NCBI RefSeq assembly: GCF_044704955.1
Contig: NC_091979.1
Location: 200,446,001-200,510,000 of the forward strand
Reading direction: 5' to 3'
Length of the DNA stretch: 64,000 nt
Source of the DNA: Pristiophorus japonicus
Lineage: Eukaryota
This document shows positions 2,688 to 53,800 of the stretch, in pieces (the stretch's first letter is position 1; each line of letters begins with the position of its first letter). Both the position numbers and the translations under genes were made by a program. The notes below the pieces were generated by a model. That model was not told the DNA's origin, did no database searches, and was given only the letters and a program-made list of their open reading frames with translations.

Positions 2688-2909
<222 letters not shown>

Positions 2910-2959
2910 TCAAACTGTCACAGGATGGGAGAATGGAAAGCACCAGTTCCAACTGTCAC

Positions 2960-3120
2960 AGGAACATCCAGTCGTGCCCCGGTAAGTGCCCCCAAAGGAA
3001 GTGGAGTGTGGGAAATTGCACTCCGCTTCCATTGAGGGGTGGCAAGGCCAATTCTGCGGCGGGAGCAGTACTTCCACGCTGGGGGCTAAAATTCCCTGCC
3101 CCAGAAGGTTACCGCCCCCA
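2960..3120. mobile_element. GC-rich MITE-like fragment
   Basis: Internal hairpin ggaagtggagtg...cactccgcttcc; composition resembles the other non-autonomous elements in the window. Confidence 0.4.
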
Positions 3121-3833
3121 AGATGGGAGCCTGTGCGGGGAGGCAGAGGGAAGATGAGGGGAGACAGGGGGGGGGGGGGCGGGGGATGGAGGGGAGTGGT
3201 GGAGGTAGGGGAGCGGAGAAACCCAGGGCAGGGGACAGGAGGGGCCACATTGCAGCGAAGGTGGGGGGGGGGGGGGGCGAAGTGTGTGTTGGAGGAGCGG
3301 GCCTGGGGGCTCTGTGCCTCGGTGCGGGGAGTGTTCAGAGTGGGGTGGACAGGTTGACTGTGCAGATGGCGGTTGGTGGATGTGGTGTGGTTGGCTTTGT
3401 GGGGGCGTGGCTCCAGGGTGGCTGGGGCTGGGGGCTCGACATCCAGGGGTGGTCGGCATTTTGGAAGAATTCTGATGGGCCGGAGCGGGTTGGGTGCGGA
3501 GGGAGTGTTCCTGGTGTTGGGTGGGTCCAGAGACGGAGGGTGGCATGCTCTTGGGATGGGGGGGTGGGCTGTTTGGGGCTGGGATTGGGAGAGACTTCTT
3601 CACTCGGGGAGTTGTTGGCCTGTGGGGTTCCCTGCCGCGGAGAGTTGTTGATGCCAGTTCATTGGATGCGTTCGGGAGGGAGTTGGATGTGGTCCTTGCG
3701 TCTGGGGGGGTCGGGGGGATGTGGAGGGGGGAGGTGCTGGGGTGGATGATCAGCCATGATCTTGTTGAATGGCGGTGCAGGCTCGAAGGGCCGAATGGCC
3801 TACTCCTGCACCTATTTTCTATGTTTCTATGTT
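3121..3833 (+). mobile_element. Internally deleted, A->G hypermutated CR1 LINE copy
   Basis: 3302-3467 aligns without gaps to 48181-48346 (32 A->G, 1 G->A). 3468-3833 matches the CR1 3' end and tail. Confidence 0.92.
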
Positions 3834-4216
3834 GTACACTGAACAGTGAATGTCCCAATAACACAGTGCATCATTGGATTATGTAGGGTTTCTGGTACAA
3901 GCAATATTCTAACAGAAAGACAAATGTATTTCACAAATACCTCTCAATCCACGTCCAAGACCGTATATCTTATTATCCTGAAATACAGTGGGGACATTGC
4001 TCCCCTTCCCCAGCAAATTATTTGCCCGTCCCTTTTTCACGATTTTTCACGAAATTCACCATGTTACAAGCTGGTCTATTAATATCAGCTCAACAAATTC
4101 CTTTATTAATTATTTGTATAGATTGCAACTGAGCAATACAGATAAGTGACGCTTTCAGTTCTTTTTATCTGCACAGTCACACAGCAATCTACAAAGGAAT
4201 TTCATCCATACTATAC

Positions 4217-4293
4217 CTTGCTTTCTTGCTTTTCTCTGAGTTGGTAAGGATATTCCACCCTTTCATTACAGGCATAGCACAGGCAGCCACAGG
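4217..4293 (-). CDS. NDUFS1: NDUFS1 exon 5
   Basis: tag|CCT...GCA AG|gt, 77 nt. Encodes [26 protein letters not shown]. Confidence 0.97.
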
Positions 4294-9860: not shown

Positions 9861-10131
9861 ATAATTTTTTGAAATTGTTTTAGATTAAAGTTAGAAAGCA
9901 CTTGCATGTATATAATGCCATATCATATCCCTCTCAAACATTTCAAAAATGAATTACTTTCAAGTGCAGTCACTGTTGTTACACAGCAGCCATTTTACAT
10001 GTCAAGATCCCACAATCAGCGATGAGATGAGGATGGAATATTGGCCAGGACACCGGGAAAGTCTCTGCTCCTCTTCAAATAGTGCCAAGGGATCTTTAAA
10101 CAAAGTAACAGGCAGATGGGGCCTAGGTTTA

Positions 10132-10792
10132 AGGGGCCCTAAAATGCAGCCTTTCTGGGTGCGTACGGCACACTCCCAAAAATGCCCCACAAATTTAGGC
10201 ATGCACTATCCATCCCATTACCAAAAAAGAAATTTTGACAGATCGTACGAATGCGAAAGTAAAGGGCCTCCACGGGTGAAGATTTGGGCTACTTGCCCAA
10301 CTCCTGCCCAGCACAAGGCCTGCTTTTACCAGTGTAAGAGTTTTAAAAGATAGAAAAAATTAATTTTATGACAGATTTTTATATTAAAAACCTGTCCATT
10401 AAGTAGTTTATTTTTGACACTAATAAAGCATATTAAAATATATATATTTTTTTTTCTAAAACATTTAATTCAATTTCTAGAATTTTAAATAGTTGAGGTG
10501 TTTTTAAAAAAAAAAAGTATTGTGTTTTCTTTGTTTTTGCGTGTATTCCCATTCTTAGTGATGGGATCTCCATGGAAAAGGAGCTACCATTATTATCAAT
10601 GAGAAAATACGTCATTTCGATTGGTGGTCCGACCCACACGATCCCAGGATGCGCTTACGCTCCTGGAATGCGTGGGCCTCTGGACTGGGCTGCGCATCTA
10701 GGCCTCGGAGCGGAAGTGATCGTTCCTCCAGGACCACCAGGTATTTTCTTTTTTTTTTGCAGTTGGAGGCCTCCACCCGCAATTTCTGTGCC
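10132..10792. mobile_element. Non-autonomous DNA element (MITE) inserted in a DeuSINE
   Basis: GC-rich ends and AT-rich core; homologous in opposite orientation to 30533-31205; splits a SINE (9895-10130 / 10795-10915). Confidence 0.6.
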
Positions 10793-11456
10793 AAGGACTC
10801 ATCTTAAGGATGATGCAGCATTGATGTGTCATCCTAGATTATTTTCTCAAGTAATGAAATAGAGCTTGAACCCATGACTTTCAGATTTAGGGAATGGAGT
10901 GCTACCAACTGATGAGCACCAAATTACTTTAAAAAAAGAATGATCTATACAACATTAGAAGTCGTGAGAGAACCACCTCAGCCTTTTGGCTTATATTACA
11001 GAATTAACTTCAAGAATTGTAATATTTAATAACTCTCCTCCCCCCACAGAGATAAATAATAAAACAAATTGAAAAAAATATTCCTCAGCTGAGGCTCCAA
11101 GAATGCTTCCCATCAAATTACTGCTTAAAATGTTATGTTCATAAAGGTGTGGGGTGTCAGCAGGGCAAAAGTAGAACAGCCTCAACTCCCAGGAATAGTA
11201 CGGTCCTACACTGCCCTAGAAATCAGCCCAAGGTCATGTATCTGATGCAAGGTAATGCTCTTCCAACATTGTAGGGACAATTAACAGGAGGAGAGGGGGA
11301 AGAGGTGAAGTAGTTTAGGGAGGGAATTCCAGAGCTTGGGGCCTTGGCAGCTGAAGACACGGCTAGAAACCTTAGTAAGCTCACACACAATGCTGATAGT
11401 AGTACAGTGAAACGGCTGACAATGGGGTAACATCTCGTCCCTACTACTTTTCCTAC

Positions 11457-11538
11457 CATTGTTCTTTGCTGCCAGGATATCTTTGGCAGACTGTGAAACG
11501 CCCGTTAGCGTCCTGCGCATCAGAGGCAATCGCAGCAT
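11457..11538 (-). CDS. NDUFS1: NDUFS1 exon 2 coding part (mitochondrial presequence); exon acceptor at 11547
   Basis: cag|GTCACCATC ATG; MLRLPLMRRTLTGVSQSAKDILAAKNN G|gtagga. Phase 1 joins exon 3 in frame; basic presequence starting MLR. Confidence 0.9.
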
Positions 11539-11847
11539 GATGGTGACCTGAATGAAAAGCAAAAGGGTTCAGTTAGAATCAAGTGACTGGTGGGCACCAA
11601 AGGGATAGACACACACAATAAGTTTCTCTTTGTTTGGTTTAAATTAGACTTTATGCTTAAAGAATTCCAATAGCTATGCCTCCTTGCAAGGGGACATATG
11701 CAAATTTGTTTTCTTGATAATGATACCGGGGCGACTCAGCATTAGCCTCATTTGATTTATATTTAGGTGTCAGACTTGGTTCAGTGGTAGCACTCTCACC
11801 TCAGAAGGTGGTGGGTTCAAGCCCCATTCCAGAGGCCTGAGCACATA

Positions 11848-12993
11848 ATAGAAATATAGAAATAAGGTGCAGGAGCAGGCCATTCGGCCCTTCCAGCCTA
11901 CACCGCCATTCAATAAGATCATTGCTGATCATTCAACCTCAGTACCCCTGTCCTGCCTTCTCTCCATACCCCTTGATCCCCTTGGCTGTAAGGGCCATAT
12001 CTAACTCCCTTTTGAATATATCTAACGAACTGGCCTCAACAACTCTCTGCGGAAGGGAATTCCACAGGTTAACATCTTTGAATGAAGAAGTTTCTCCTCA
12101 TCACAATCCTAAATGGCTTACCCTTTATTCTTAAACTGTGGCCCCTGGTTCTGGAACTCTCCAGCAACGGGAACATTCTTCCTGCCTCTAACCTGTCTAA
12201 TCCCATCAGAATTTTATATGTTTCTATGAGATCCCCTCCCATTCTTCTAAACTCCAGTGGATACAAGCCCATTTTGATCCAGTCTCTCCTCATATGTCAG
12301 TCCTGCCATCCCAGGAATCAGTCTGGTGAACCTTCGCTGTACTTCCTTAAAAAGAAAGAACGTTCTTCCTCAGATTAGGAGACCAAAACTGATCACAATA
12401 TTCCGGGTGAGGCCTCACCAAGGCTCTGTACAACTGCAGTAAGACCTCCCTGCTCCTATACTCAAATCCTCGAGCTATGAAGGCCAACATGCCATTTGCC
12501 TTCTTCAACGCCTGCTGTACCTGCATGCCAACTTTCAGTGACCGATGTACCATGACACCAGGTCTCGTTGCACCTCCCCTTTTCCTAATCTGTCACCATT
12601 CAGATAATATTCTGTCTTCCTGTTTTTGCCACCAAAGTGGATAACCTCACATTTATTCACATTATACTGCATCTACCATGCATTTGTCCACTCACCTAAC
12701 CTATCCAAGTCACCCTGCAGCCTCTTAGCATCCTCCTCACAGCTCACACCACCACCCAGCTTAGTGTTATCTGCAAACTTGGAGATATTACATTCAATTC
12801 CTTCATCTAAATCATTGATGTATATTGTAAATAGCTGGGGTCCCAGCACTGAGCCCTGCGGCACCCCACTAGTCACTGCCTGCCATTCTGAAAAGGACCC
12901 ATTTATCCCGGCTCTCTGCTTCCTGTCTACCAACCAGTTCTCTATCCACGTCAATACAGTAACCCCAATACCATGCGCTTTGATTTTGCACAC
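11848..12993 (-). mobile_element. CR1 LINE, 5'-truncated (RT to 3' end)
   Basis: [21 protein letters not shown] and KFADNTK motifs; 3' terminus at about 11850. Confidence 0.92.
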
Positions 12994-13565
12994 CAAACGC
13001 ACAAGTCTGCACAAACTGATTTTTGAGCAGCTACAGGTTAGATATTTAAACAATGATTCAAACTTTACGTTTTATGAAGTTATCAGTATAGAATGGAGTA
13101 TGACAGCATCTATTCACAGTCTACACAACTTAGCTTCTGCACAATAAAAACAAGAGCGGTCAACAATGAGGGAATGTTATGAAAAATAACAGCGAGACAG
13201 ATCAGAACCCAATTTAAAGAGCGGGGGGAGAGGAGACTGTGTTTACTTTGCAGAGTGAGCTACATTAAAACAGCTCACCTCATCAAACTAGATCAATTAA
13301 TAAATAACATACACACACACCACACAGGCTTATTGGTCAGCGCTAACATGGCTGTCGAGACCGCCAGGTAATGAAGTCTCCCGGCTCTCACCCGGGATAC
13401 CGACAGGGACTCCCGTCAAGGGCAAAGCCCACAAGCCCGAGCGCAACCCTTCGCACTTCTCACGGTACACGGCACGTTGTATCAAAAGTCTGCAATTCGC
13501 CCCGCAGAAACGCCAATTACCGGTCGAAAGCAATAAGAAGCGGTTCCCAGGGATGCTCTCGTTAC

Positions 13566-13680
13566 CTGGACGCTAGTTGGCCTTCTCAACCAGAACAGCG
13601 ACATGGCTTGATGGCGGCTCGGCTCCTTCCGATAACGGTTCGGCAATTTCCGGCTCTTTCTGGAACGACGCAAATCATGA
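13566..13680 (-). other. NDUFS1: NDUFS1 exon 1 (5' end approximate)
   Basis: CAG|gtaacg donor at 13566/13565 inside a CpG island, directly upstream of exon 2. Confidence 0.7.
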
Positions 13681-14008
13681 ACGTTACACGTTTCGAACTT
13701 ATTTTCCTCCCTCTCGTCGTAAATACTAGCAATTATCTTTAAAACCATCAAATAAACACATCAAAACGGTTCAACATAAAATCGTTATGTTCGGAAAAAC
13801 CCGTATGCGGCTTCGGTAATTTTCGTGAGTTTCCGAACCCGGACCGATCTACTTTAATGTTCAATTTATCAGAGCTCGCTGTTTAAAGAATCGCATTATT
13901 AAAAAGCGTGTACTGATCTTTATTTTTAAGTGGAGTTTTATTTTATTGGAGCGCCACGCGAGGGCCTCGGTCGATGGCGGGGTCAACCGGGCCATTTCCG
14001 GCGTGCCA

Positions 14009-14043
14009 TATAAAGGCGGCACGCGAAATTTCCGGTCTCTTTT
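14009..14043 (+). promoter_or_regulatory. TATA box and TCT/5'TOP initiator of EEF1B2
   Basis: TATAAA at 14009-14014; CTCTTTT at 14037-14043, about 30 nt downstream. EEF1B2 is an established TOP mRNA. Confidence 0.8.
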
Positions 14044-14113
14044 AACGGCTGCCGCGCGTGTAGTTGCTGTGGAGTCTCAAGGTTGCGCTCGCTCGCAAAC
14101 CCGCCGCCATCCC

Positions 14114-14137
14114 CAATCAATCAATCAATCAATCAAT
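14114..14137 (+). repeat. (CAAT)6 microsatellite in the EEF1B2 5' UTR
   Basis: Read directly from the sequence. Confidence 0.9.
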
Positions 14138-14149
14138 CCATCCACCGCC

Positions 14150-14229
14150 ATGGGGTTCGGGGACTTGAAATCCGCCTCCGGCCTGAAGCTGCTCAACGAC
14201 TTCCTGGCGGACAGGAGCTACATCGAGGG
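14150..14229 (+). CDS. EEF1B2: Elongation factor 1-beta, coding exon 1
   Basis: Kozak gccATGG; [27 protein letters not shown]; 80 nt, donor gtgggt. The seven exons total 675 nt (224 aa plus stop). Confidence 0.96.
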
Positions 14230-14562
14230 GTGGGTAAGGTGGGACGAGGGGGCCGGGTGGTGTCTGCGGGGCCTTGGCCGAGTGAGCGAAAGGCAGAGGC
14301 CGAGGCATAGGGCGGCGAGAAACTCATTAAAGCGGATAGCGTTATTTTCCGTCTTGATATGCGTTCTCTCTTCAACGCCGCCCCAACTCTCTCCCCTCCT
14401 CTTTTCCCCCCCGGCCCCCGGGCTCTCCTCCCCTCCCCCACTCTGGCTCCCCCGGTCCCGATCCCATCTTCTGCCCTCCTGTCTTTCCTATCAGGGAACA
14501 AACTTTTATATGGTTGATAATTGCCTTTGTCTTTTTTTTTAATTGCTTTTATTTGATTAAAG

Positions 14563-14685
14563 GTATGTTCCATCACAAGCTGACATCGCTGTGTTTGAAG
14601 CTCTTGGTACTCCACCTTCGGCTGCCTTCTTCCATGCACTTCGGTGGTACAATCACATCCGGTCCTATGAAAGCACAAAGTCTAG
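14563..14685 (+). CDS. EEF1B2: EEF1B2 coding exon 2
   Basis: 123 nt; [40 protein letters not shown]; ag/gt boundaries. Confidence 0.97.
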
Positions 14686-15086
14686 GTATGATGTACTTGA
14701 TGTGAACTGTACATATTTGCGGATACAAGAAAGGTTAATTTTATATGGTACTTTATTGTGACTTGAAGTACTTCTCATACTAGTGAATAACCTTCAAATA
14801 GTGACTATTATAGGCATTTTGACGGTGAGTTTATTATGAAGACTGCAAAGCTATAGATGACTATTTTGAATATTGAGGTATATTACCCAGGAGAATGCTG
14901 TTGTTCAAATAGCCTAAGGATATTTATCATTCATACAAAGAGGTCGGTGTGGTCAGTTTAACAGTTCATCCAACGGATATCACCTGAAACAATTTATTAT
15001 TCCCTCACTGGTTCAAGCCTAGATTATTTGGTTAAATTCTGGAATGGGAGTTATTAAAAGCTGAGTGCTTCAGGTTCATCATGGGA

Positions 15087-17250
15087 CATAGAAACATAGA
15101 AAAGAGGTGCAAGAGTAGGCCATTCAGCCCTTTGAGCCTGCACCACTATTCAATATGATCATGCAACTTCAGTATCCCATTCCTGCTTTCTCTCCATACC
15201 CCTTGATCCCTTTAGCCGTAAGGGCCACATCTAACTCCATTTTGAAAATATCCAATGAATTGGCCTCAACAACTTTGTGGTAGAGAATTCCACAGGTTTG
15301 CAATTCTCTGAGTGAAGAAGTTTCTCCTCATTTCGGTTCTAAATGGCTTACCCCTTATCCTTCAACTGTGACCCCTGGTTCTGGACTTCCCCAACATCAG
15401 GAGCATTCTTCCTGCATTGAACATGTCCAATCCCATCAGAATTTTGTGTTTCTATGAGATCCCCTCATTCTTTTAAATTCCAGTGAATATAAGCCTAGTT
15501 GATCCAGTCTTTCTTCATATGTCAGTCCTGCCATCCTGGGAATCAGTCTGGTGAACCTTCGCTGCACTCCCTCAAATAGCAAGAATGTCCTTCCTCAGAT
15601 TAGGAGACCAAAACTACACAATATTCAAGGTGTGGCCTCACCAAGGCCCTGCATAACTGCAGTAAGACCTCCCTGCTCCTGTACTCAATTCCTCTCACTA
15701 TGAAGGCCAACATGCCATTTTCTGTCTTCACTGCCTGCTGTACCTGCATGCCAACTTTTAATGACTGATGTACTATTGCACCCCTCCTTTTCCTAATCTG
15801 TCACCATTCAGATAATCTGCCTTTCTATTTTTGCCACCAAGGATAACCTCACATTTATCTACATTATACTGCATCTGCCATGCATTTGCTCACTCACCTA
15901 AACCTGTCCAAGTCATCCTGCATCCTCCTGACAGCGCACACTGCCACCCAGCTTGGTGTCATCTGCAAACTTAGAGATTCCTTTGTCCAAATCATTAATG
16001 TATATTGTAAATAGCTGGGGTCCCAGCACTGGACCTTGTTGTACCCCACTAGTCACTGCCTGCCATTCTGAAAAGAACCTGTTTATTCCTACTCTTTGCT
16101 TCCTGTCTTCCAATCAGTTCTCTCTCCATGTCAATACATTACCCCCAAAACCATGTGCTTTAATTTTGCACACTAATCTCTTGTGTGGGACCTTGTCAAA
16201 AGCCTTTTTAAAGTCCAAATACACCACATCCACTGGTTCTCCCTTGTCCACTCTAGTAGTTACATTTTCAAAAAATTCTAGAAGATTTGTCAAGCATGAT
16301 TTCACTTTCATAAATCCATGCTGACTTGGACTGATCCTGTCATTACTTTCCAAATGCGCTGCTATTACATACTTTATTCCAACATTTTCCCCACTACTGA
16401 TGTCAGGTTAACTGGTCTATAATGCCCTGTTATTTTTCTCTCCCTCCTTTTTTAAAAAGTGTTGTTACATTAGCTACCCTCCAATCCATAGGAACTGATC
16501 CAGAGTCTACAGAATGTTGGAAAATGACCACCAATCCATCCACTATTTCTAGAGTCACTTTCTTAAGTACTCTGGGATGCAGACTATCAGGCCCTGGGGA
16601 TTTATCGGCCTTCAATCCCATCAATTTCCCTAACACAATTTCCTGACTAATAAGGATTTCCTTCAGTTCCTCCTTCTCGCTAGACCCTCGGTCCCCTAGT
16701 ATTTCCGGAAGGTTATTTGTGTTTTCCTTAGTGAAGATAGAACCAAAGTATTTGTTCAATTGGTCTGCCATTTCCTTGTTCCCCATTATAAATTCACCTG
16801 ATTCTGACTGCAAGAAACCTACATTTGTCTTCACTAATCTTTTTCTTTTCACATATCTATAGAAGCTTTTGCAGTCAGTTTTTATGTTCCCTGCAAGCTT
16901 GCACTCATACTCTATTTCCCCCCTCCTAATTAAACCCTTTGTCCTCCTCTGCTGAATTCTAAATTTCTCCCAATCCTCAGGTTTGCTGCTTTTTCTGGTC
17001 AATTTATATGCCTCTTCCTTGGATTTATCCGTAATTTCCCTTGTTCGCCACGGTTGAGCCACCTTCCATGTTTTATTTTTACGCCAGAAAGGGATGTACA
17101 ATTGTTGAAGTTCATCCCTGTGATCTTTAAATGCCTGCCATTGCCTATCCACCGTCAACCCTTTAAGAATCATTCGCCAATCCATCCTAGCCAATTCATA
17201 TCTATACCATCGAAGTTTGCTTTCTTTACGTTCAGGACCCTAGTCTGAGT
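15087..17250 (-). mobile_element. CR1 LINE, 5'-truncated, in EEF1B2 intron 2
   Basis: KSPGPDSLHP, QHGF...SCLTNLLEFFE, YLDFKKAFDKVPH and KFADDTK motifs; catagaaa tail at about 15087. Confidence 0.93.
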
Positions 17251-17694
17251 TAACAGTGTACTTTGTATGGCCTTGATTCTTTAACTCTTATTAGTTGTCC
17301 AGCCAAGTTTCATAGTTGGTGGGAAGCACTGTTTAGAGAATGCATATTAGAGATTTATTTCAAGACTGCACTCCTACCCTGCACAAACTTGAATGTTACT
17401 TGACTTTAACGGACAATGTGTGACCCGGGCTCTCTGTTGAGGATGTCACTTCAGTTGATCTAAAAGGAGGACAACCCACCTGTGCTGCTTTGAGATGGAT
17501 TAGATTTCGATAGAATAAAAAACTGAACACATTTTAAGATTGTAAGAGAAGTTTCATAGAACTTTGGAACTGTTCATTCAGGCTGATGTTGATTTCCTTT
17601 TTATTGGTCATCTCACTAGTGTGAATAGATAATGTAGATGATAACTCCTGACTTCCAATTAGTTGTAACTTGATAAAATCTTGCAAACCAGACC

Positions 17695-18630
17695 ATTCAC
17701 AACCATGCCGTCCAATTTAACCGTGAGATGAGCTTCCAACCACATCTGCTCTGTCACCATGACTCTACTGCCATCTCCATAACATTGCCTGTATGTTCCT
17801 GCCTCGGCTCCTCTACTGCTGAAACACTCATCCATACTGTTGTTACATATAGGCTTGATTATTTCAATGCTCTCCTGGCAGGTCTCCTATAAACTTGAAC
17901 TCCTATAAAGCTCATTCTGCCATTCCCATTTACACCTCTTCTGGACTCATCTTTTGTTTCTTTACTTATCCCATTTCCTTTTGCTTTGTATAATCTTACC
18001 TTTTTTCATTTCATCACTCCTGCCTTCCACCCTGTCACACACTTTCCATTTTGTGCTTTCCTCCCCTCCCCCCATTCCCTACACTTGCTTAAAATCTTAC
18101 ATCTCTAACTACTTCCAGTTCTAATGAAAGGTCATCGACTTGAAACGTTAACTGTTCCTCTCTCCACAGATGCTGCCTGATCATCTGAGTATTTCCAGCG
18201 TTTTCTGATTTTATTTCTTAGAAAACTGCTTGCACCAAGTCCTGCTCACTCATCACCCCTGTGCTCGCTGATCTATATTAGCTACCAGTCTGGCAATGCT
18301 GCGGTCTTAAAATTCTCATCCTTGTTTTCAAATCCCTTGACTGCCTTGTCCAGCCCCATCACCGTAACCTCCTCCAGCCCTTCAACACTCAGGGATCTCT
18401 GCCCTCCTCCAATTCTGGCCTTTGGCTGCCTGGGCCCTAATCTCTGGAATTTCCCCCCTGAACTATTCTGAGTGCCTCCTCCTTTTTAAAACACTCCTTT
18501 AAAACCTTCTGAGACCCAAGTTTTTGGTCACCTGTCCTAATGACTCCTAATATGGCTTGATGTCAAACTTTATTTGATAACACACCTGTGAAGCACCTTG
18601 TGATGTTTTACAAAGGTGCTATATAAATAA
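17695..18630 (+). mobile_element. L2 3' fragment interrupted by a Penelope-like terminal-repeat fragment (about 17920-18220)
   Basis: L2 end (cctgtgaagcaccttg...aaaggtgctatataaat); Penelope-type tract gaaaggtcatcgacttgaaacgttaactg...cacagatgctgcctga. Confidence 0.65.
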
Positions 18631-19591
18631 AATGTTTTTGGTCAAATACAGCTGTTTGTGCCCTCTAATTGTAGAGCATGCTTGCTGTACTCTAAACCTT
18701 CAATGTGCACTCATCCCTTCTGGCATATGACCAAAGCCAACTTTATGCAGTTTTCACAGCAATATGGAAGGAATTTGGTTCTGAAAAGGCTGTTAAATAT
18801 TACTAGAATCCCTTAAGAACAAAAGTTATTCATCACTGCAAATCAGTGGCCCCAGTTATCAAAAAGACCCAGTACTCTGGTCTGAGCTCGGCATTGCAAA
18901 ACCATGGACATGTACTCCACTTTTATAGCTGTGACTTCAACATACTATTTCTTTCCAAATGCCTTTCCATTGAAAGTGGAGGGCCTACTGTTAGTCCAAA
19001 GTCTCTCTGTACTAGCTATTTAATTTGTGGGTTGCTTGCAATACACTAGAAATGTGCACTATTAAAGTGGCAGCAACCTTTTTGCCTTGGGATCTATATT
19101 AAAGTAAATTTCCAAAAATATTCTCGAGACAATTCTAACTTATTGCCCTTTTAAAAGTCTTTTGCTGCCCTGCTGCAAATCACTTATCCCATAAAGAAAG
19201 ACTTGCCAGTATACAACACCTTCCACAAACTCAGGACACCCAAAACACTTTACAATGAATAAAGTACCTTTGATGTGTGGTCACTGTTATAATGTAGGAA
19301 AAAATTGAGCTGAACTGTTGATCGTGAAGGAAAATTAGATGGTGATTTGTGGGGGGAGGGGGCTGAGATTTTCTATCGCAAATAATTTTATCAATTTTGT
19401 AGATTTGGCGACGGAGTTAGATGTCGTCTTGCATTAATTTTGGGAAACATTGGAACTGGATGTGGTGAGATTGCAAAAGCTGAATTACTGGCGATTTAGA
19501 TTATGGTGTAAATCCAAACCAGAATGTTTTAGCCCCAATTCTGGTGTCTGCCTAATTCTTGATTGCAATTCTGACCTTTAACCTCTGACAG

Positions 19592-19715
19592 CCTTCCAGG
19601 TGTTAAGCAGCCTCTTGGTAAATATGGGCCACAAAACGTAGCAGATACAACACCAACAAAAGCAGTGGCAGACGATGACGATGACATTGATCTATTTGGA
19701 TCTGATGATGATGAG
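19592..19715 (+). CDS. EEF1B2: EEF1B2 coding exon 3
   Basis: 124 nt; [13 protein letters not shown]...[15 protein letters not shown] (acidic region). Confidence 0.97.
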
Positions 19716-20270
19716 GTGGGTTCTGTGCCAACAGATTTACCAGAGCTGGACCTGTGCTATCATGTGACAGCATCCCTCCAAGCCTGAAAATGTTACCCAT
19801 ACTTTTGTTATATGAAGTAGTGTGAATATTTTAGATACCCTATCTTAATATTTTTAAATGCCAGTGCTCTTAAGTTAATACATTGGTCAGAGTGTAGCAT
19901 TGGATGGATTCACACCTTTATTATACTTCAAACCGTAAACCTCAAACTCTACTATTAAAATGTATTAATCTCTCTGAGTAACAGTATGATGTGAAACTAA
20001 GTATCTCCAACTGGCAATTCCAAAACTGTTGTCGCAAAATTTTACTTAGAATTTGTAGGTTCACTTACAAAATTGAAGCTATTGAGTACATGTAGAAGAT
20101 CCAGGTTTGTGTCTGATCTCTCAGGATAGTGAAGGCTGGCTGATCATTAGAATTGGCAGAGGCTTGAAAATATGTCTGGGGTGAAGAGACAAATCATAAT
20201 CCCTTAAATAGGTTGTCATGTTCATCCTGCCAAATTAATTTTGGCTTGTTTGTGATTTCCTAGTATCTGA

Positions 20271-20352
20271 GACTGGTTTTCATGATGATTCTAATTCACC
20301 ATCTTTCGGCTGAATTCATGATTATACTGTAAACTATCTGACAAAACCAGTC
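20271..20352 (+). ncRNA. SNORD51: C/D box snoRNA SNORD51 (U51), copy 1, intron 3
   Basis: Terminal stem gactggtttt/aaaaccagtc; C box ATGATGA at 20282; guide TTCACCATCTTTCGG plus D' CTGA, complementary to 28S CCGAAAGAUGGUGAA; D box at 20338-20341, about 76 nt upstream of the 3' splice site. Human EEF1B2 hosts SNORD51. Confidence 0.93.
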
Positions 20353-20417
20353 AAATTTCCTTGTATGTTGAAGTTCCATTATGAATATCATTGACTATTT
20401 ATATCTATCTCTTACAG

Positions 20418-20484
20418 GAAAGTGCAGAGGCTCAGAGGATCAAGGAAGAACGTCTAGCTCAATATGAAGCTAAAAAATCCAAGA
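20418..20484 (+). CDS. EEF1B2: EEF1B2 coding exon 4
   Basis: 67 nt; ESAEAQRIKEERLAQYEAKKSK. Confidence 0.97.
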
Positions 20485-20519
20485 GTATGTAATAATTTAG
20501 TATAACATGGTCTGGAGTC

Positions 20520-23500
20520 AACATAGAAATTTACAGTGCAGGAGGCGGCCATTCCGGCCCATCGTGTTCGTGCCGGCCGACAGAGCCACATGGCCCTTGG
20601 TCAGCAGCCCTATACCTATGAACAATGACAGAAAAGCAAAGAGCACCCAGCCCAACCAATCCACCTCGCTGCAACTGCAACACCTGTTAGACTAAAACAT
20701 TCTACACTCCACCCCAACCGGAGCCATGATCTACTGGGAGAGGCAAAAACCAGATTAAAAACCCAGGCCAATTTAGGGAGAAAAAATCTGGGAAAATTCC
20801 TCTCCGACCCATCTAGGCGATCGAAACTAGTCCAGGAGTTCACCCCGGCTGTATTCTATTTCCTGCAATACTTGCCGTTATTTCTGCTCCGTCCAACAAA
20901 AGGTCATTCAGTCTAATCCCAATTACCAGCTCTAGGTCCGTAACCCTGCAGGTTGCTGCACTTTTAAGTGCTCATCCAACCAACTCTTTAAAAAGTGGTG
21001 AGGGTTTCTGTATTCACCACTCCTCCAGGCAGCAAATTCCAGATCCCCACAACCTTCTATGTAAAGAAGCCCCCCTCAAATCCTCTCTAAACCTTCCACT
21101 AACAACCTTAAAACAATGCCCCCTCATAACAGACACCTCCAACAATGGAAATAGACCCATATCTACTATTTCCAGGCCCCTCAATATTTTGTACATCTCA
21201 ATGAAGTCTCCTCTCAACCTCTGTTCCAATGAGAACAAACCCAGCCTATCCAATCTGTCCTCATAACTAAAATTCTCCATTCCAGGCAGCATCCTAGTAA
21301 AACTCCTTTGCACCCTCTAGTGCAATCATGTCCTTCCTATAATACAGTGACCAGAACTGCACGCAATACTCCAGCTGTGGCCTAACCAATGTATTATACA
21401 ATTTAAGCATAACCTCCCTGCTCTTGTATTCTGTGCCTCGGCCAATAAAGGCAAGCATTCCGTATGCCTTCTTAACCACCTTATCAACTTGGCCTGCTAC
21501 TTTCAGGGATTTGTGGACAAGCACTCCAAGGTCTCTTTGTTCATCTATACTATTAAGTGGCCTACTGCTTAATGTGTATACCCTTTCCTTATTGGCCCCC
21601 TCAAAGTGCATCACCTCATACTTCTCTGAATTAAATTCCATTTGCCACTGCTCTGCCCGCTTGACCAGTAGATTGATATCCTCCTGCAGCCCATGAGTTT
21701 TCTCCATTATCAGCCACACAGCCAATTTTAGTGTCGTCCGCAACCACCTTAATCATACTCCCTATATTCAAATCTAAATCGTTGATATATACCACAAAAA
21801 GCAAGAGTCCCAGTACTGAGCCCTGTGGAACCCCACTGGAAACATTCTTCCAGTCACACAAACATCCATCAACCATTACCCTTTGTTTCCTTCCTCCAAG
21901 CTGATTTTGGATCCAACTTGACACTTTGCCCTGTATCCTATGGGCTTTAACCTTCATGACCAGTCTACCATGTGGGATCTTATCAAAAGTTTTGCTAAAG
22001 TACATATATACTACATCGTATGCACTACCCTCATCGACCCTCATGGTTACCTCTTCAAAAAATTCAATCAAGTTAGTCAGACATCATCTTCCCTTAACAA
22101 ATCTGTGCTGACTGTCCCTAATTAATCCTGGTCTTTCCAAATGTAAATTTATCCTGTCTTTCAGGTTTTTTCCCCAATAATTTTCCCACCATCGGAGGTT
22201 AGGCTGACAGGCCTGTAATTACTTGGCCTATCTCTTTCTCCCTTCTTAAACAAAGATACTACATTAGCAGTCCTCCAATCCTCCAGCACCATGCCTAGAT
22301 CCAAAGAGGACTGGAAATTGACGGTCAGGGCCCCTGCTATTTCATCTTACTTCACTTAACAGCCTGGGATGCATTTCATCTGCGCCTGGGGACTTGGCTA
22401 TTTTCAAAACTGCTAAACCCCTTAATACTTCCCCTCACACATTTATTTCATCCAGAATATCACACTCTTCCTCGATTGCAGTATTTGCATTGCTCCTTTC
22501 TTTTGTGAAAACAGTTGCAAAGAATTTAAGAACTCTCCCAACATCTGCCTCCACACAAAGAATACCCTCATGGTCTCTAATAGCCCTACCCTTTCTTTAG
22601 TTACCCTCTTCATATATTTATAGAACATCTTGGGGTTTTCCTTAATTTTACTGGCCAAGAATTTCTCATGCTCACTTAGCATTCCTAATATCCTTTTTAA
22701 TTTTGCCTTGTAACTTTCTATATTCCTCTAAAGATTCTATAGTATTTAGCTGTTGATATATGACATAAGCGTCGCTTTTTTCTTAATCCTCCCCTGTAAA
22801 TCCCTAGACATCCAGGGGGCTCGAATTATTTTTCTCAACCTTTTTCTTTTAAGGGCATATGTTTTGGCTTGAGCCTTCCGGATTTCCTCATTTAAATGCC
22901 TCCCACTGTTCCGACACTGATTTACCAACAAGTAGCTGTTTCCAGTCCACCATGGCCAAATCACTCCTTAACTTAGCAAAATTAGCTTTTCCCCAATTCA
23001 GAACTTTTATTGCAGGCCACTTCTTGTCCTTATCTATAACATGACGGAATTATGGTTACTGGCACCCAAGTGCTCTCCTACTATAATACCCCTTCAACCT
23101 GTCCAGCTTCATTCCCCAAAACTAAATCCAAGACCTCCCCCTCTCATGTTGGGCTTGCTACATACTGACTTAAAAAAAAGTTCTCTTGAATGCATTTCAA
23201 GAATTATGCATCCTCTATCCCTTCACACTATTTACCCCAATCAATATTTGGATAGTTAAAAACCCCTACTATTACTTCCCTATGGTTTTTGGACTTCACA
23301 GCAATTTGGCTACATATTTGGTCCTCTATCTCCCTCCCACTGTTTGTTTGGGAGTCTATAATACATGGCCAGCAGTGTGATTGCCCTTTTTTTAATTTTT
23401 CAATTCGACCCATATGGCCTCATTTGATGATCCCTCTAACATAACATATCCCTCCTCGCCGCTGTAATATTTTCTTTAATCAGTACTGCAACCCCCCCTC

Positions 23501-23665
23501 CCTACATTTTTTACCCCCCCCTCTCTTGTCTAAAAGTCCTGTAGCCAGGAATATTGATCTGCCAAACCTGCCCCTCTTTCAGCTATGTTTCTGTAATGGC
23601 TATAATGTCATACTCCCAAGTGTCTACCTGTGCTCTTAGCTCATCTGCTTTATTCGCTATACTCA
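20520..23665 (-). mobile_element. CR1 LINE (second subfamily), degenerate EN-RT ORF2 with long 3' UTR
   Basis: GVFNYPNIDW (EN), [17 protein letters not shown] and RPQLEYCVQFWS motifs, with frameshifts. Confidence 0.9.
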
Positions 23666-24559: not shown

Positions 24560-24637
24560 TTGGTTTTAATGATGATTCCAATTCACCATCTTTCGACTGA
24601 ATCAATGATGTGAATTCATCTAATCTGACAAAACCAA
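24560..24637 (+). ncRNA. SNORD51: SNORD51 paralogue, copy 2, intron 4
   Basis: Stem ttggtttt/aaaaccaa; C box ATGATGA at 24569; guide TTCACCATCTTTCG(A) plus D' CTGA at 24597; C'-like ATGATGT; D box CTGA at 24625. Confidence 0.88.
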
Positions 24638-25180: not shown

Positions 25181-25306
25181 AGCCAGCACTCATTGCTAAA
25201 TCATCTATTTTGCTGGATGTGAAACCATGGGATGATGAAACTGACATGTCCAAACTGGAAGAATGTGTACGTTCAGTGTTAATGGATGGCTTAGTTTGGG
25301 GTTCCT
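25181..25306 (+). CDS. EEF1B2: EEF1B2 coding exon 5
   Basis: 126 nt; [41 protein letters not shown] (GEF domain). Confidence 0.98.
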
Positions 25307-28215: not shown

Positions 28216-28236
28216 AACAGCAACTAATGAACACTT

Positions 28237-47807: not shown

Positions 47808-50800
47808 TGTTATATATGTAAACCTTGTAAATACCTTGTTTAACCACCAGAGGGCTCATCCCCTGGAGTGCCAAGGGATCCCACAAACCCTTGGCAGCAC
47901 AGGTATATAAGGAGGCCTCACATGCTGGAGAGGCACTCTGGAGACCTGCAATAAAGGACTACGGTCACACACTACTTTGAGCCTACAGTATCTGGTCAGA
48001 CTCTTTATGGCAGGGTGATGGGAACCAATGCAGGGAGACAGAGGGAAACAAAATGGAGACAGAAGCAAAAGACAGAAAGGAGATGAGTAAAAGTGGAGGA
48101 CAGAGAAACCCAAGGCAAAAAACAAAAAGGGCCACTTTGCAGCAAAATTCTAAAGTGTCTAAGTGTGTTAAAAAGGCAAGCCTGAAGGCTCTGTGCCTTA
48201 ATGCGAGGAGTATTCAGAATAAGGTGGACGAATTAACAGTGCAGATAGCAGTTAACGGATATGATGTGGTTGGCATCACGGAGACATGGTTCCAGGGTGA
48301 CCAAGGCTGGGAACTCAACATCCAAGGGTATTCAACATTTAGGAAGGATAGAAAGGAAGAGGAGGCAGGGTGGCGTTGCTAGTTAAAGAGGAAATTAATG
48401 CAATAGTAAGGAAAGACATTAGCTTGGATGATGTGGAATCGGTATGGGTGGAGCTGCAGAATACCAAAGGGCAGAAAACGCTAGTGGGAGTTGTGTACAG
48501 ACCTCCAAACAGCAGTAGTGATGTTGGGGAGGGCATCAAACAGGAAATTAGGGGTGCATGCAATAAAGGTGCAGCAGTTATCATGGGTGACTTTAATATG
48601 CATATAGATTGGCGAACCAAACTGGAAACAATACAGTGGAAGAGGATTTCCTGGAGTGCATAAGGGATGGTTTTCTAGACCAATATGTCGAGGAACCAAC
48701 TAGGGGGAGGCCATCTTAGACTGGGTGTTGTGTAATGAGAGGGGATTAATTAGCAATCTCGTTGTGCGAGGCCCCTTGGGGAAGAGTGACCATAATATGG
48801 TGGAATTCTACTTTAGGTTGGAGAATGAAACCGTTAAGTCAGAGACCATGGTCCAAAACTTAAAGAAGGGTAACTTTGAAGGTATGAGGCGTGAATTGGT
48901 TAGAATAGATTGGCGAATTATACTTAAGGGGTTGACAGTGGATGGGCAATGGCAGACATTTAGAGACCGCATGGATGAACTACAACAATTGTACATCCCT
49001 GTCTGGCATAAAAATAGAAAAAGGAAGGTGGCTCAACTGTGGCTATCAAGAGAAATCAGGGATAGTGTTAAAACCAAGGAAGTGGCATACAAATTGGCCA
49101 GAAATAGCAGCGAACCCGGGGACTGGGAGAAATTTAGAACTCAACAGAGGAGGACAAAGGGTTTAATTAGGGCAGGGAAAATAGAGTACGAGAGGAAGCT
49201 TGCAGGGAACATTAAAATGGACTACAAAAGCTTCTATAGAGAGAAAAAGCTTGTAAAGAGAAAAAGGTTAGTAAAGACAAATGTAGGTCCCCTGCAGTCA
49301 GAATCAGGAGAAGTCATAACTGGGAACAAAGAAATGGCAGACCAATTGAACAAGTACTTTGGTTCGGTATTTACTAAGGAGGACACAAACAACCTTCCGG
49401 ATATAAAAGGGGTCAGAGGGTCTAGTAAGAAGGAGGAACTGAGGGAAATCCTTATTAGTCGGGAAATTGTGTTGGGAAAATTAATGGGATTGAAGGCCAA
49501 TAAATCTCCAGGGCCTGATGGTCTGCATCCCAGAATACTTAAGGAGGTGGCCTTGGAAATAGCGGATGCATTGACAGTCATTTTCCAACATTCCATAGAC
49601 TCTGGATCAGTTCCTATGGAGTGGATGGTAGCCAATGTAACCCCACTTTTTAAAAAAAAAAGAGAGAGAAAACACGGAATTATAGACCGGTCAGCCTGAT
49701 ATCGGTAGTGGGTAAAATGATGGAATCAATTATTAAGGATGTCATAGCAGCGCATTTGGAAGGTCCAAATCAGCATGGATTTTTGAAAGGGAAATCGTGC
49801 TTGACAAATCTTCTGGAATTTTTTGAGGATGTTTCCAGTAGAGTGGACAAGGGAGAACCAGTTGATGTGGTGTATTTGGACTTTCAGAAGGCTTTCGACA
49901 AGGTCCCACACGAGATTAATGTGCAAAGTTAAAGCACATGGGATTGGGGGTAGTGTGTTGACGTGGATTGAGAACTGGTTGGCAGACAGGAAGCAAAGAG
50001 TAGGAGTAAATGGGTGCTTTTCAGAATGGCAGGCAGTGACTAGTGGGGTACCGCAAGGTTCTATGCTGGGGCCCCAGCTGTTGACATTGTACATTAATGA
50101 TTTAGACGAGGGGATTAAATGTAGTATCTCCAAATTTGCGGATGACACTAAATTGGGTGGCAGTGTGAGCTGCGAGGAGGATGCTATGAGGCTGCAGATA
50201 GGTTAGGTGAGTGGGCAAATGCATGGCAGATGAAGTATAATGGAGATAAATGTGAGGTTATCCACATTGGTGGTAAAAACAAAGAGACAGACTTATCTGA
50301 ATGGTGACAGATTAGGAAAAGGGGAGATGCAATGAGACCTGGATGTCATGGTACATCAGTCATTGAAGGTTGGCATGCAGGTACAGCAAGAGGTTAAGAA
50401 AGCAAATGGCATGTTGGCCTTCATAGCGAGAGGATTTGAGTACAGGGGCAGGGAGGTGTTACTACAGTTGTACAGGGCCTTGGTGAGGCCTCACCAAGTA
50501 CAGTTTTGGTCTCCTAACTTGAGGAAGGACATTCTTGCTATTGAGGGAGTGCAGCGAAGGTTCACCCGACTGATTCCCGGGATGGCAGGACTGACATATC
50601 AAGAAAGACTGGATCAACTGGGCTTGTATTCACTGGAGTTCAGAAAAATGAGGGGATCTCATAGAAATGTTTACAATTCTGACGGGTTTAGACAGGTTAG
50701 ATGCAGGAAGAATGTTCCCAATGTTGGGGAAGTCCAAAACCAGGGGTCACAGTCTAAGGATAAGGGGTAAGCCATTTAGGACCGAGATAAGGAAAAACTT

Positions 50801-53800
50801 CTTCACCCAGAGAGTGGTGAACCTGTGGAATTCTCTACCACAGGAAGTTGTTGAGGCCAATTCACTAAATATATTCAAAAAGGAGTTAGATGTAGTTCTT
50901 ACTACTAGGGGGATCAAGGGGTATGGCGAAAGCAGGAATGGGGTACTGAAGGTGCATGTTCAACCATGAACTCATTGAATGGCGGTGCAGGCTCGAAGGG
51001 CCGAATGGCCTACTCCTGCACCTATTTTCTGTTTCTATCTATGTTTCAAGACATAACAACTGGCAAGGAGATACAGATGTCGAACCCCAATGCAACAATG
51101 CAGAGAACCGTGGGCATCCTGGAGAAATTTTCGGAGGGAGATGATTGGGAAACCTTCGTGGAGCGACTCGACCAATATTTCGTGGCCAACGAGCTGGAAG
51201 GAGAAGCGAACGCTGCCAAACGAAGAGCGATTCTCCTCACCGTTTGTGGGGTGCCAACGTATGGCCTCATGAAAATTCTGCTTGCTCCAGCGAAACCCAC
51301 AGACAAGTCGTACGATGATTTTTGCACACTGGTCCGGAAGCATCTAAACCCGAAGGAAAGTGTTCTGATGGCGAGGTATTGGTTCTACACGTACAAGAGG
51401 TCTGAAGGCCAGGAAGTGGCGAGCTATGTCGCTGAGCTAAGGCGCTTTGCAGGATATGGCGAATTTGAAGGATACGTGGAGCACATGCTCAGGGACTTCT
51501 TTGTACTTGGCATTGGCCATGAACTTTTGACTGTAAAGACACCAACCCTGACTGTAGAAACACCAACCTTGAGTAAAGCTATAGCGATAGCCCAGGCCAT
51601 CATCGCCACCAGTGACAATACCAAACAAATCTCAGCACACAAGTGCTGTTGCAAGTACTGTGAACAAAGTAGTAATGTTTTTTACAAATCTTAACATACA
51701 GGGCAGGACTCGCATGCCTGCAGTTGCACGTACACAGGTGTCTGAATCCACCATCAAGGGTGGTGAATGCAAGGCCATTAACACTTTGTTGGTGCTGCGG
51801 AGGTGATCATCGCTTCCATTCATGCCGCTTCAAAGGATAAGTTTGCAAGGGCTGTGGAACAATGGGACACCTCCAATGTATGTGCAGGTGAGATGCAAAC
51901 CCTGCTAATCCTGCAAACCACCATGTTGCAGAGGAGAACCGATCCACGGTGGATCACAACGAACCAGAGCCTCAGACTGAGGAGGCAGAGGTATATGGGG
52001 TGCACACATTTACCACAGTGTCCCCCGATAATGCTGAAGTTTGAATTAAATGGGCTCCTGGTGTCAATGGAGCTTAGCGCGGGCGTGAGCCAGTCCATAA
52101 TGAGCAAAAAGACTTTCGATAAACTGTGATGCAGCAAGGCCTCAAGGCCAGTCCTGACTCCAATTCGTACTAAACTGAGAACGTACACATAGGAACTGAT
52201 ACCCGTAATTGGCAGTGCTACAGAAAAGGTCTCCTACGATGGAGCGGTGCATAAATTACCACTCTAGGTGGTACCGGGTGATGGCCCCACGTTGTTCGGC
52301 AGGAGCTGGCTGGAAAAGATACACTGGAACTGGGACGACATCCGAGCGCTCTCGTCCGTCGATGACACTTCGTGTGCCCAGGTCTTAAACAAGTTCCCCT
52401 CGCTGTTCAAACTGGGCATCGGGAAGTTCCAAGGCGCAAAAGTGCAGATCCATTTGATTGTGGGGGCGCGACCCATCCATCACAGGGCGAGAGCGGTACT
52501 GTACATAGAGAGCGTAGATCGAGCTGGACCGGCTGTAACGAGAGGGCATCATTTTGCCAATCGAATTCAACATGTGATCCAGTCCAATTGTTCCAGTCCT
52601 CAAGGAAGACGACACCATCAGTTACTTAGAATCTGTGGCGATTACAATCAATCGTTTCTCCCTGCAGGTCAATACCCGCTACCAAAGGCAGACGATCTTT
52701 TTGCGACATTGGCAGGAGGAAAAACGTTCACGAAGCTGGATTTGACCTCTGCCTACGTGACGCAGGAGCTGGAGGAATCATCGCAGGGCCTCACCTGCAT
52801 CAACACGCGCAAAGGTCTCTTCATTTACAACAGATGCCCGTTTGGGTATCGATCAGCCGGGGTGATATTCCAGAGGAACATGGAAAACTTGCTGAAGTCG
52901 GTCCCGCGCACCGTGGTCTTCCAGGATGACATCTTGGTTACAGGTCGGGACAGGGTCGAGAACCTGGAGGAGGTTCTTAGTTGGCTTAATCATGTGGGGC
53001 TCAGGTTAAAACGCGCGAAGTGCGTTTTCCTGGTGACTGAAGTGGGGAGAAAAATCGCGGCGGACAACATCAGGCCCATCGATTCGAAGACTGAGGCAAT
53101 CAAGAACACGCTGAGACCACAGAACCGTGACGGAGCTGTGGTTGTTTCTTGGACTCCTGAACTACTTTGGTAACTTTTTACCGGGTCTCAGCACACTGCT
53201 AGAACCACTACACTCTTTACTGCGTAAAGGAAATGAAAGGACATGGGGTAAAAGCCAAGAAAATGCCTTTGAGAAAGCTAGAAAGCTGTTATGCTCAAAC
53301 AAATTGCTTGTGTTGTATGATCCATGTAAGCGTTTGGTACTAGCATGTGATGTGTCGTCATAAGGTGTCGGATGTGTATTGCAACAAGCTAATGAATCTG
53401 GGAAATTGCAACCGGTTGCTTATGCATCCAGAAGTCTGTCTAAGGCTGAGGGGGCCTACAGCATAATCGAAAAAGAAGCAATAGCATGTATTTATGGGGT
53501 AAAGAAAATGCATCAATATTTGTTTGGGCCTAAATTTGAATTGGAAACTGACCATAAGCCACTTATGTTCCTCTTCTCTGAAAGTAAGGAGATTAACACA
53601 TCCAGAGATGGACGCTTACGTTGTCCGCATACAATTACGCCATCCGTCACCGGCCAGGCACAGAAAACTGTGCCGATGCTCTCAGTAGGCTGCCATTGTC
53701 CACCACAGGTGGAGATGGTGCAGCCCGCAGACTTAGTTATGGTAATGGAAGCATTCGAAAGTGAGCAATCACCTGTTACCCCCCCCCAGACAGATTAGAA

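What the first reader, a model, noticed from the sequence alone, without database searches (positions are those of the whole stretch)
3121..3833. ADAR-type A->G hyper-edited LINE RNA fixed in the genome
Seen: this G-rich tract in NDUFS1 intron 5 is a CR1 copy. A hand alignment of 3302-3467 to 48181-48346 (166 nt, ungapped) gives 32 of 50 As changed to G, with only 1 G->A and about 10 other differences. A->G rates by 5' neighbour are T 8/8, A 10/13, C 6/12 and G 8/14. The same bias runs through 3468-3760 against the CR1 3' end. Known: ADAR hyper-edits dsRNA (I is read as G) and prefers 5' U > A > C/G, whereas APOBEC editing gives sense G->A. Inference: an inosine-rich CR1 transcript was reverse-transcribed and integrated in the germline. 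That would be a DNA record of ADAR anti-LINE activity that also creates new G-run/G-quadruplex sequence in one step.
Basis: partly seen in the sequence, partly recalled or inferred. Interest (0 to 1): 0.92.

Follow-up and report, generated by a model that had tools for sequence, protein, structure and literature searches.

The report
Retroposon family founded by hyper-edited RNA
This G-rich stretch is one copy of a family of roughly two thousand small jumping elements whose founder was a LINE RNA with about two thirds of its A's changed to G, most likely by the RNA-editing enzyme ADAR, so an editing event in one RNA appears to have been written into the germline and then multiplied.

Summary
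The A>G bias is real, but it did not arise at this locus. 3122-3833 is the body of a non-autonomous CR1-derived retroposon: tandem-repeat array, unedited 160-nt head, two fused CR1 pieces about 2.3 kb apart in the parent, and a CR1 tail. It has 612 and 1,067 exact motif hits in G000, about 1,200-2,300 copies.

Family versus parent CR1: A>G 145/227, G>A 5/211, T>C 1/150. By 5' neighbour: T 28/29, A 57/71, C 30/43, G 29/63 (p about 1e-6). The last 89 nt are spared (1/17). No half-edited copy turned up among 120, which points to one edited founder.

Four independent hyper-edited CR1 copies occur elsewhere, one on the antisense strand, with pooled 5' T/A > C/G. At one motif there were 2 edited versus 57,138 unedited hits.

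Best reading: ADAR hyper-edited a CR1 RNA, it was reverse-transcribed into the germline and became a master element (0.83). No inosine, dsRNA partner or source locus was shown, and the 3' G preference is not significant.

The parts
2906..2962 (+). Remnant (about 1.5 units) of the family's 5' tandem array of 37/38-bp units; this copy is 5'-truncated inside the array
   Evidence: other copies carry 0 to 130 units (up to 4.8 kb in L159). No sequence upstream of the array was shared among the 5 long arrays followed to their start.
2963..3121 (+). GC-rich head of about 160 nt, not CR1-derived, not edited, no tRNA or Rfam match; origin not found
   Evidence: Keeps 4 TpA and 13 ApA among 35 A, whereas the body has 0 TpA in 620 nt. 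ARAGORN 0 genes; Rfam only one chance hit elsewhere in the element. All 20 of 56 variant-junction hits read were family members.
3122..3470 (+). Hyper-edited CR1 5' piece: the stretch before ORF2 and the start of the ORF2 endonuclease
   Evidence: Family vs parent consensus A>G 84/126, G>A 4/100. The parent frame has a PF03372 endonuclease match. The edited frame is still open but recoded.
3468..3747 (+). Hyper-edited CR1 3' piece (end of ORF2 and 3' UTR), fused to the 5' piece at a short microhomology; about 2.3 kb of ORF2 deleted
   Evidence: A>G 60/82 before the tail. Deletion about 2,325 nt measured on the window copy 48017-51046.
3748..3833 (+). Almost unedited CR1 3' end with predicted stem-loop and octamer tail repeats; inferred recognition site for the CR1 reverse transcriptase
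   Evidence: 1 of 17 A changed vs 12.3 expected from body rates matched for 5' neighbour; 0 of 200,000 simulations as low. Fold.
2754..2840 (-). NDUFS1 exon downstream of the insertion
   Evidence: TIGR01973 positions 79-107; PF10588
4201..4290 (-). NDUFS1 exon upstream of the insertion (matched stretch; exact splice sites not mapped)
   Evidence: phmmer vs PDB, NDUFS1 residues 89-118, E 3e-11
48017..51046 (+). Unedited near-complete ORF2 CR1 copy used as reference; a different subfamily from the family's true parent
   Evidence: RVT_1 matches E 5e-12 and 7e-9; alignments

Best explanation
A CR1 LINE-containing RNA formed a long duplex, probably with an antisense CR1 (inferred), and was hyper-edited by ADAR at about 70% of its adenosines outside the 3' end. 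CR1 reverse transcriptase copied it, reading inosine as G (established chemistry, inferred here), and inserted it in the germline. An internal deletion of about 2.3 kb at a short microhomology and joining to an unedited head plus tandem array gave a short composite source element (structure shown; order of these steps not known). The 3' 89 nt stayed intact, so autonomous CR1 could mobilise it in trans (inferred from stringent 3'-end recognition). It then produced about 1,200-1,400 copies reaching the head and about 2,300 reaching the 3' part, 5'-truncated at variable points. The window copy is an ordinary member, antisense in an NDUFS1 intron. The same editing hit other CR1 RNAs rarely, of the order of 1 in 10,000-30,000 insertions, and left dead-end copies.
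For: Spectrum of family vs parent consensus: A>G 145/227, T>C 1/150, G>A 5/211, C>T 4/115 (Fisher p about 1e-43 and 1e-48). Control: 47 unedited parent loci average 2.6% A>G, maximum 13.5% for one distant subfamily. Direction: the A alleles lie in an endonuclease frame with a Pfam match, and the G alleles recode it. 5' neighbour T 28/29, A 57/71, C 30/43, G 29/63, chi2 p 1e-6; order T>A>C>G in 25 of 25 single-copy reference pairs. This matches the ADAR 5' G depletion in PMC4365171 and PMC8586724 (passages). One founder: in 120 copies, G>A at edited sites is 238/12,876, equal to native G sites 402/21,424 (p 0.87), and no copy has more than 6. Recurrence: L152 A>G 131/239, L153 113/235, L144 36/90, L154 T>C 38/62 (antisense). 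Pooled 5' neighbour on the edited strand T 78/118, A 97/150, C 59/139, G 78/196, p 8e-8. L153 is edited over about 600 nt and then stops abruptly (5/76 in the last 300 nt), as a partial duplex would give. Retrotransposition marks: variable 5' truncation, octamer tails, different flanks. Edited head and body contigs occur in runs X1 and X5 (organism A, two studies) and X6 (labelled organism B); head and edited body are not seen in X9 (organism C).
Against: No RNA, inosine or ADAR assay. The 3' G preference is not significant (G 51/69 vs 62-72% for other bases, p 0.58). No dsRNA partner was found: the parent pieces have no self-complementary 10-mer and the source locus was not identified. No unedited precursor with the same junction was found (0 exact hits for one motif). 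Parent loci were fetched with motifs holding A at some edited sites, which fixes a few of the 227 A positions; the unbiased window copy gives the same picture. L152 and L153 were found with a motif that forced four G's, which slightly inflates their T/A rates. Tail sparing is not absolute: L152 is edited in its last 75 nt (6/13). ADAR genes were not searched for in G000.
Confidence: 0.83

Rival explanations
1. Polymerase error during insertion: under low dATP, second-strand synthesis puts G opposite template T, giving sense-strand A>G in one burst with no deaminase.
For: It would also be one-stranded, single-event and tied to reverse transcription (own knowledge of nucleotide-pool hypermutagenesis). 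The 3' G preference of ADAR is not seen.
Against: It does not predict the T>A>C>G order at the 5' neighbour. It explains poorly 60-97% conversion with almost no other errors, a sharp tract boundary inside one insertion (L153), and sparing of the head and tail. The passages of PMC3185545 seen gave no example of this kind.
Confidence: 0.07
2. Adenine deamination on DNA or on the DNA strand of the RNA:cDNA hybrid (ADAR acting on the hybrid, or another deaminase) during insertion.
For: L154 carries T>C on the CR1 sense strand (38/62), which deamination of first-strand cDNA would give. Its 3' end could not be traced past an LTR insertion, so its transcript orientation is open.
Against: The family and 3 of 4 independent copies have sense A>G, which first-strand cDNA deamination cannot give. 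Deoxyinosine in DNA is normally repaired (own knowledge). L154 is equally explained as an antisense CR1 piece inside another edited transcript.
Confidence: 0.05
3. One reading: this locus is itself the direct insertion of an edited transcript.
For: The window copy has a few more A's than the family consensus (A>G 132 vs 145).
Against: All 132 of its A>G sites are family alleles. Its reversion rate at edited sites (2/114) is no higher than at native G (5/190). Its divergence (2.8% non-CpG) is typical of the family (2.4% +/- 0.6), and it is 5'-truncated, so it is not the source.
Confidence: 0.02
4. Slow GC-biased change (biased gene conversion or selection for G-richness) in a master element.
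For: Copies show mosaic haplotypes and several shared T>G variants.
Against: It predicts T>C as often as A>G; observed 1/150 vs 145/227. No intermediates in 120 copies. The head and tail are untouched.
Confidence: 0.02
5. Sequencing or assembly artefact.
For: G-run lengths vary between copies, and homopolymer errors may contribute to that.
Against: Over 1,000 loci on both strands of many contigs with different flanks. The same G alleles occur in contigs of three public runs from three studies (X1 may be the assembly's own sample). Copies show normal CpG decay at the newly made CpGs.
Confidence: 0.01

Closest known systems
ADAR A-to-G hyper-editing of retroviral RNA recorded in DNA (RAV-1, Felder 1994; avian leukosis virus, Hajjar and Linial 1995; as cited in PMC8586724, passages seen)
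   Same: Dense sense-strand A>G with 5' G depletion, fixed by reverse transcription.
   Different: Those are single viral clones. Here the substrate is a non-LTR CR1 RNA, it is germline-fixed, and one product became the source of a family of over 1,000 copies.
APOBEC DNA editing of LTR retroelements fixed in vertebrate genomes (PMC4866542, passages seen)
   Same: A burst of strand-biased deaminase changes fixed in genomic copies.
   Different: That is G>A from C-to-U on cDNA, and their filter kept G-to-A and excluded A-to-G alignments. Here it is A>G with an ADAR-type context, in a LINE.
Hyper-edited repeat RNA in transcriptomes (PMC4365171, passages seen)
   Same: Clustered A>G in repeats, with G depleted 5' of edited sites.
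   Different: Those are RNA-only. They also show 3' G enrichment, which is not significant here.
SINEs sharing a 3' tail with a partner LINE, e.g. shark HE1/HER1 (PMC3747384, passages and table row seen)
   Same: Non-autonomous, with a LINE-derived 3' end and presumed stringent recognition.
   Different: No tRNA, 5S or 7SL head was detected. The body is internally deleted, hyper-edited CR1. No sequence comparison with HE1 or HER1 was possible.
SVA-type composite retroposons (PMC3287187, search listing only)
   Same: Composite non-autonomous element with a variable tandem array, mobilised in trans.
   Different: Unrelated parts, CR1 partner and octamer tail rather than L1 and poly(A). The resemblance is in layout only.

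Membership tests
ADAR hyper-editing signature | A>G dominant and confined to one strand | tested here: met
   145/227 vs T>C 1/150 and G>A 5/211
ADAR hyper-editing signature | 5' neighbour preference U > A > C > G | tested here: met
   0.97, 0.80, 0.70, 0.46. Independent copies pooled 0.66, 0.65, 0.42, 0.40.
ADAR hyper-editing signature | G enrichment 3' of edited sites | tested here: inconclusive
   3' G 51/69 is the highest rate but p 0.58; near-saturation lowers the power.
ADAR hyper-editing signature | Long double-stranded RNA substrate | tested here: inconclusive
   No internal inverted repeat in the parent pieces; source locus not found; tract boundary in L153 is only indirect.
ADAR hyper-editing signature | Inosine in RNA and dependence on ADAR | not testable with these tools
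   Only contigs were laid; no RNA reads or knock-outs.
APOBEC DNA editing | Sense-strand G>A clusters | tested here: not met
   G>A 5/211
LINE parent (CR1 clade) | ORF2 with endonuclease and reverse transcriptase | tested here: met
   PF03372 E 1e-10 in L111; RVT_1 in the window copy
LINE parent (CR1 clade) | Short 3' tandem-repeat tail instead of poly(A) | tested here: met
   Octamer tail in family and parent copies
LINE parent (CR1 clade) | Placement in the CR1 clade by RT phylogeny; esterase-type ORF1 | not tested
No tree was built. The ORF1 fragment gave no Pfam hit.
SINE (Pol III type, e.g. HE1) | tRNA-, 5S- or 7SL-derived head | tested here: not met
   ARAGORN 0; no Rfam match in the head at E up to 5
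Non-autonomous non-LTR retroposon | Dispersed copies, variable 5' truncation, 3' end shared with an autonomous LINE, no RT of its own | tested here: met
SVA | Alu-like part, HERV-K-derived part, poly(A), L1 partner | tested here: not met
   Body is CR1-derived and the tail is an octamer repeat; SVA features recalled.

The most novel reading that the evidence does not exclude
ADAR acts as a germline mutator that creates new transposon families. The source lineage went through more than one round of editing (TpA is fully gone from the body; several shared A>G variants mark sub-lineages and no shared T>C does), selection kept the reverse-transcriptase recognition tail intact, and the edited sequence helped the element spread, for example by leaving no preferred ADAR sites or by diverging about 20% from CR1-directed silencing in a few steps.
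Probability: 0.3. Interest if true: 0.92.

Novelty: new variant of a known kind. Interest (0 to 1): 0.8.

Why it matters
[quoted passage not shown] This genome appears to hold a natural case for a LINE system: rare hyper-edited CR1 insertions whose rate can be counted, and one edited molecule that founded a family of over 1,000 copies. That makes RNA editing a heritable source of new DNA: parent to family, CpG 11 to 40, G-runs 19 to 49, canonical G4 motifs 0 to 4 per copy. It also suggests a cheap genome-wide screen. The spared 89-nt tail gives a candidate map of what CR1 reverse transcriptase needs. No effect on NDUFS1 is shown or expected.

Tried and rejected
Unedited precursor with the same internal junction: 0 exact hits for one motif; weak evidence.

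The two copies with A at one edited head-proximal site: L045 was read and is an ordinary edited member; L061 went into the 120-copy set without standing out.

Window copy as a less-edited intermediate: rejected.

Ongoing editing at each new insertion: residual A>G 87/7,148 vs T>C 69/13,839 looks significant (p 3e-8), but with rare variants only it is 43/6,478 vs 69/13,839 (p 0.15), so it is not shown. The excess comes from shared variants.

Head origin: no match outside the family in the DNA held, and 20 of 56 variant-junction hits read were all family members.

True 5' end or promoter: 5 long arrays traced, no shared upstream sequence. Target-site duplications: no convincing one in 30 loci searched close to the head; copies with long arrays were not properly tested.

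A second edited motif from another subfamily returned only L144 again. A parent-free scan for TpA-free G-rich windows found only this element in the 64 kb window. The 3' remainder of L154 was not found beyond the LTR element.

Small-share sequencing runs were not used as evidence. PMC190828 (Kim 1996) is not held. A search for an undeleted edited founder continuing into ORF2 was not run.

Full report
Observation. Window 3302-3467 against 48181-48346 gives 32 of 50 A changed to G, 1 G>A and 10 other differences (p 8e-9). The bias runs on through the 3' piece against all four CR1 3' ends tried. The host gene is NDUFS1 on the minus strand, with exons near 4201-4290 and 2754-2840 flanking the element, so the element is antisense in an intron. 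The intron number rests on recall.

It is a family. A search of G000 with 3121-3833 scored 40 of 4,842 candidates; the 39 besides the window itself match nearly the full length at 89-92%. The copies share an upstream head and a 37/38-bp tandem array of 0 to 130 units. The head/body junction has 612 exact hits and an edited 25-mer near the 3' end has 1,067. Of 30 copies sampled by the first motif, 14 hold the second exactly. Of the 30 loci sampled by the second, 29 are family members, 18 of these reach the junction, and 9 of the 18 hold a 20-letter form of the first motif. That gives about 2,300 copies at the 3' part and 1,200-1,400 at the head. Copies are 5'-truncated at variable points and end in octamer repeats. 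They differ from their consensus by 2.4% +/- 0.6 outside CpG (59 copies). All 132 A>G sites of the window copy are G in the consensus. Contigs with the head and edited body occur in runs X1 and X5 (organism A) and X6 (labelled organism B), but not in X9 (organism C), which shares the tail (4 of 24 listed runs laid). X1 may be the assembly's own sample.

Anatomy. Array remnant 2906-2962, head 2963-3121, CR1 5' piece 3122-3470, CR1 3' piece to 3747, tail 3748-3833. The two pieces lie about 2,325 nt apart in the window's own long CR1 copy and join at a short microhomology, not at splice signals. The parent has endonuclease and RT matches. The head has no tRNA or Rfam match and was found only in family members.

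Spectrum against the parent. I fetched 30 loci for each parent piece (of 1,325 and 245 hits), dropped 9 and 4 tandem duplicates, and built consensuses from the 10 best of 21 and of 26. The fetching motifs held A at some edited sites, a small bias. Against the consensus of 30 position-sampled family copies: A>G 145/227, G>A 5/211, T>C 1/150, C>T 4/115. The 47 parent loci themselves average 2.6% A>G. Outside the tail, editing by 5' neighbour is T 28/29, A 57/71, C 30/43, G 29/63 (p 1e-6), and the order holds in 25 of 25 single-copy reference pairs. The 3' neighbour shows no significant effect (p 0.58). The last 89 nt have 1 of 17 A changed against 12.3 expected. The body keeps no TpA in 620 nt (31 in the parent), while the head keeps 4 TpA and 13 ApA, so the head was not edited. 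The A state is ancestral because it lies in the endonuclease frame, which the G state recodes.

One founder. In 120 copies, A at edited sites (238/12,876) equals background G>A (402/21,424), and no copy is half-edited. A few A>G variants are shared by sub-lineages (one site split about evenly; others in 4-15 copies), and no T>C variant is shared by 4 or more. Rare variants, however, show no significant A>G excess (p 0.15) and haplotypes are mosaic. A second round of editing is possible but not shown.

Independent edited copies. L144 turned up among the 30 loci: another subfamily, with 26 sites A where the family has G and 10 the reverse. A motif just upstream of the family's junction, with four forced G's, gave 2 hits; its mirror with four forced C's gave 1; the unedited form gave 57,138. 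All three hits are real: L152 A>G 131/239, L153 113/235, L154 T>C 38/62. Pooled with L144 on the edited strand, 5' neighbours give T 78/118, A 97/150, C 59/139, G 78/196 (p 8e-8). L153 is edited over about 600 nt and then almost not at all, and its flanks match adjoining parts of one host repeat. Allowing for edited copies that miss the motif, I infer a rate of about 1 in 10,000-30,000 CR1 insertions, from very few events. Tails are spared in L144 and L153 but not in L152, so an edited tail does not forbid a first insertion.

Mechanism. Shown: the spectrum, context, single founder, structure, copy number and recurrence. Inferred: a duplex with antisense CR1, ADAR as the enzyme, inosine read as G by the CR1 reverse transcriptase, trans-mobilisation through the intact tail, and the order of editing, deletion and head capture. 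Since the head is unedited, editing either preceded its capture or was confined to the CR1 duplex. Rivals are polymerase error under nucleotide imbalance (0.07), deamination on DNA (0.05; L154 would fit), this locus as the primary event (0.02), GC-biased drift (0.02) and artefact (0.01).

Known and new. The 5' G depletion of ADAR is described in PMC4365171 and PMC8586724; the latter cites hyper-edited avian retroviruses (passages). PMC4866542 screened for G>A and filtered out A>G (passages). PMC4982230 calls the role of ADAR in subfamily evolution undetermined (passage). PMC3747384 covers stringent 3' recognition and HE1/HER1 (passages, table row). PMC3185545 (passages) added nothing on this point. 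PMC5224506 and PMC8677026 (ADAR restricts L1) and PMC3287187 (SVA) were seen as listings only. Ten searches, judged by titles and abstract starts, listed no paper on a retroposon family founded by a hyper-edited RNA. The library lacks most subscription journals, I opened no supplements, and Repbase/Dfam were not searchable, so this is limited evidence of novelty. Earlier scan notes report single ADAR-like edited L1, LINE and LTR copies in other genomes (unchecked; two searches found nothing). Single edited copies may therefore be widespread; the amplified family is what sets this case apart.

Verdict. New variant of a known kind; interest 0.8.

Noticed in passing
L144:1345-1688 (G000 C1, + strand): Independent A>G hyper-edited 3' fragment of another CR1 subfamily, between two other CR1 copies; editing fades toward the tail.
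   Followed up: yes
L152 (G000:C1:72115259-72118286, - strand): About 870-nt CR1 3' piece, A>G 131/239, edited into the tail, with long G-run expansions at edited sites.
   Followed up: yes
L153 (G000:C2:172863627-172866654, - strand): About 890-nt CR1 piece edited over its first 600 nt or so, with a sharp boundary about 300 nt from the 3' end; inserted into another repeat.
   Followed up: yes
L154:1455-1724 (G000 C2): CR1 fragment with T>C 38/62 (A>G on the antisense strand, ADAR-type context), abutting an LTR. A nearby A-poor GC-rich stretch is unidentified.
   Followed up: partly
L235-L241 (G000:C4:132.27-132.65 Mb): Seven family copies spaced about 60 kb apart, apparently within a tandem segmental duplication; similar hits on small contigs C2034, C3831 and C4279.
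   Followed up: no
L099-L108 (G000:C1:20.07-20.15 Mb) and L062-L066 (G000:C1:0.3-3.2 Mb): Near-identical CR1 copies repeated with shared flanks (about 8-kb tandem unit in the first set).
   Followed up: no
L159 (G000:C1:7528400-7536000): The family's 37/38-bp array reaches 130 units (4.8 kb); the element disperses, or seeds, a minisatellite.
   Followed up: partly
L032/L125 (G000 C1, about 22.046 Mb): Family copy inserted at the centre of a palindromic element; the two flanks are reverse complements.
   Followed up: no
window 50909-51694: Open frame of an LTR-retrotransposon-like gag region (recalled resemblance) directly after the long CR1 copy.
   Followed up: no
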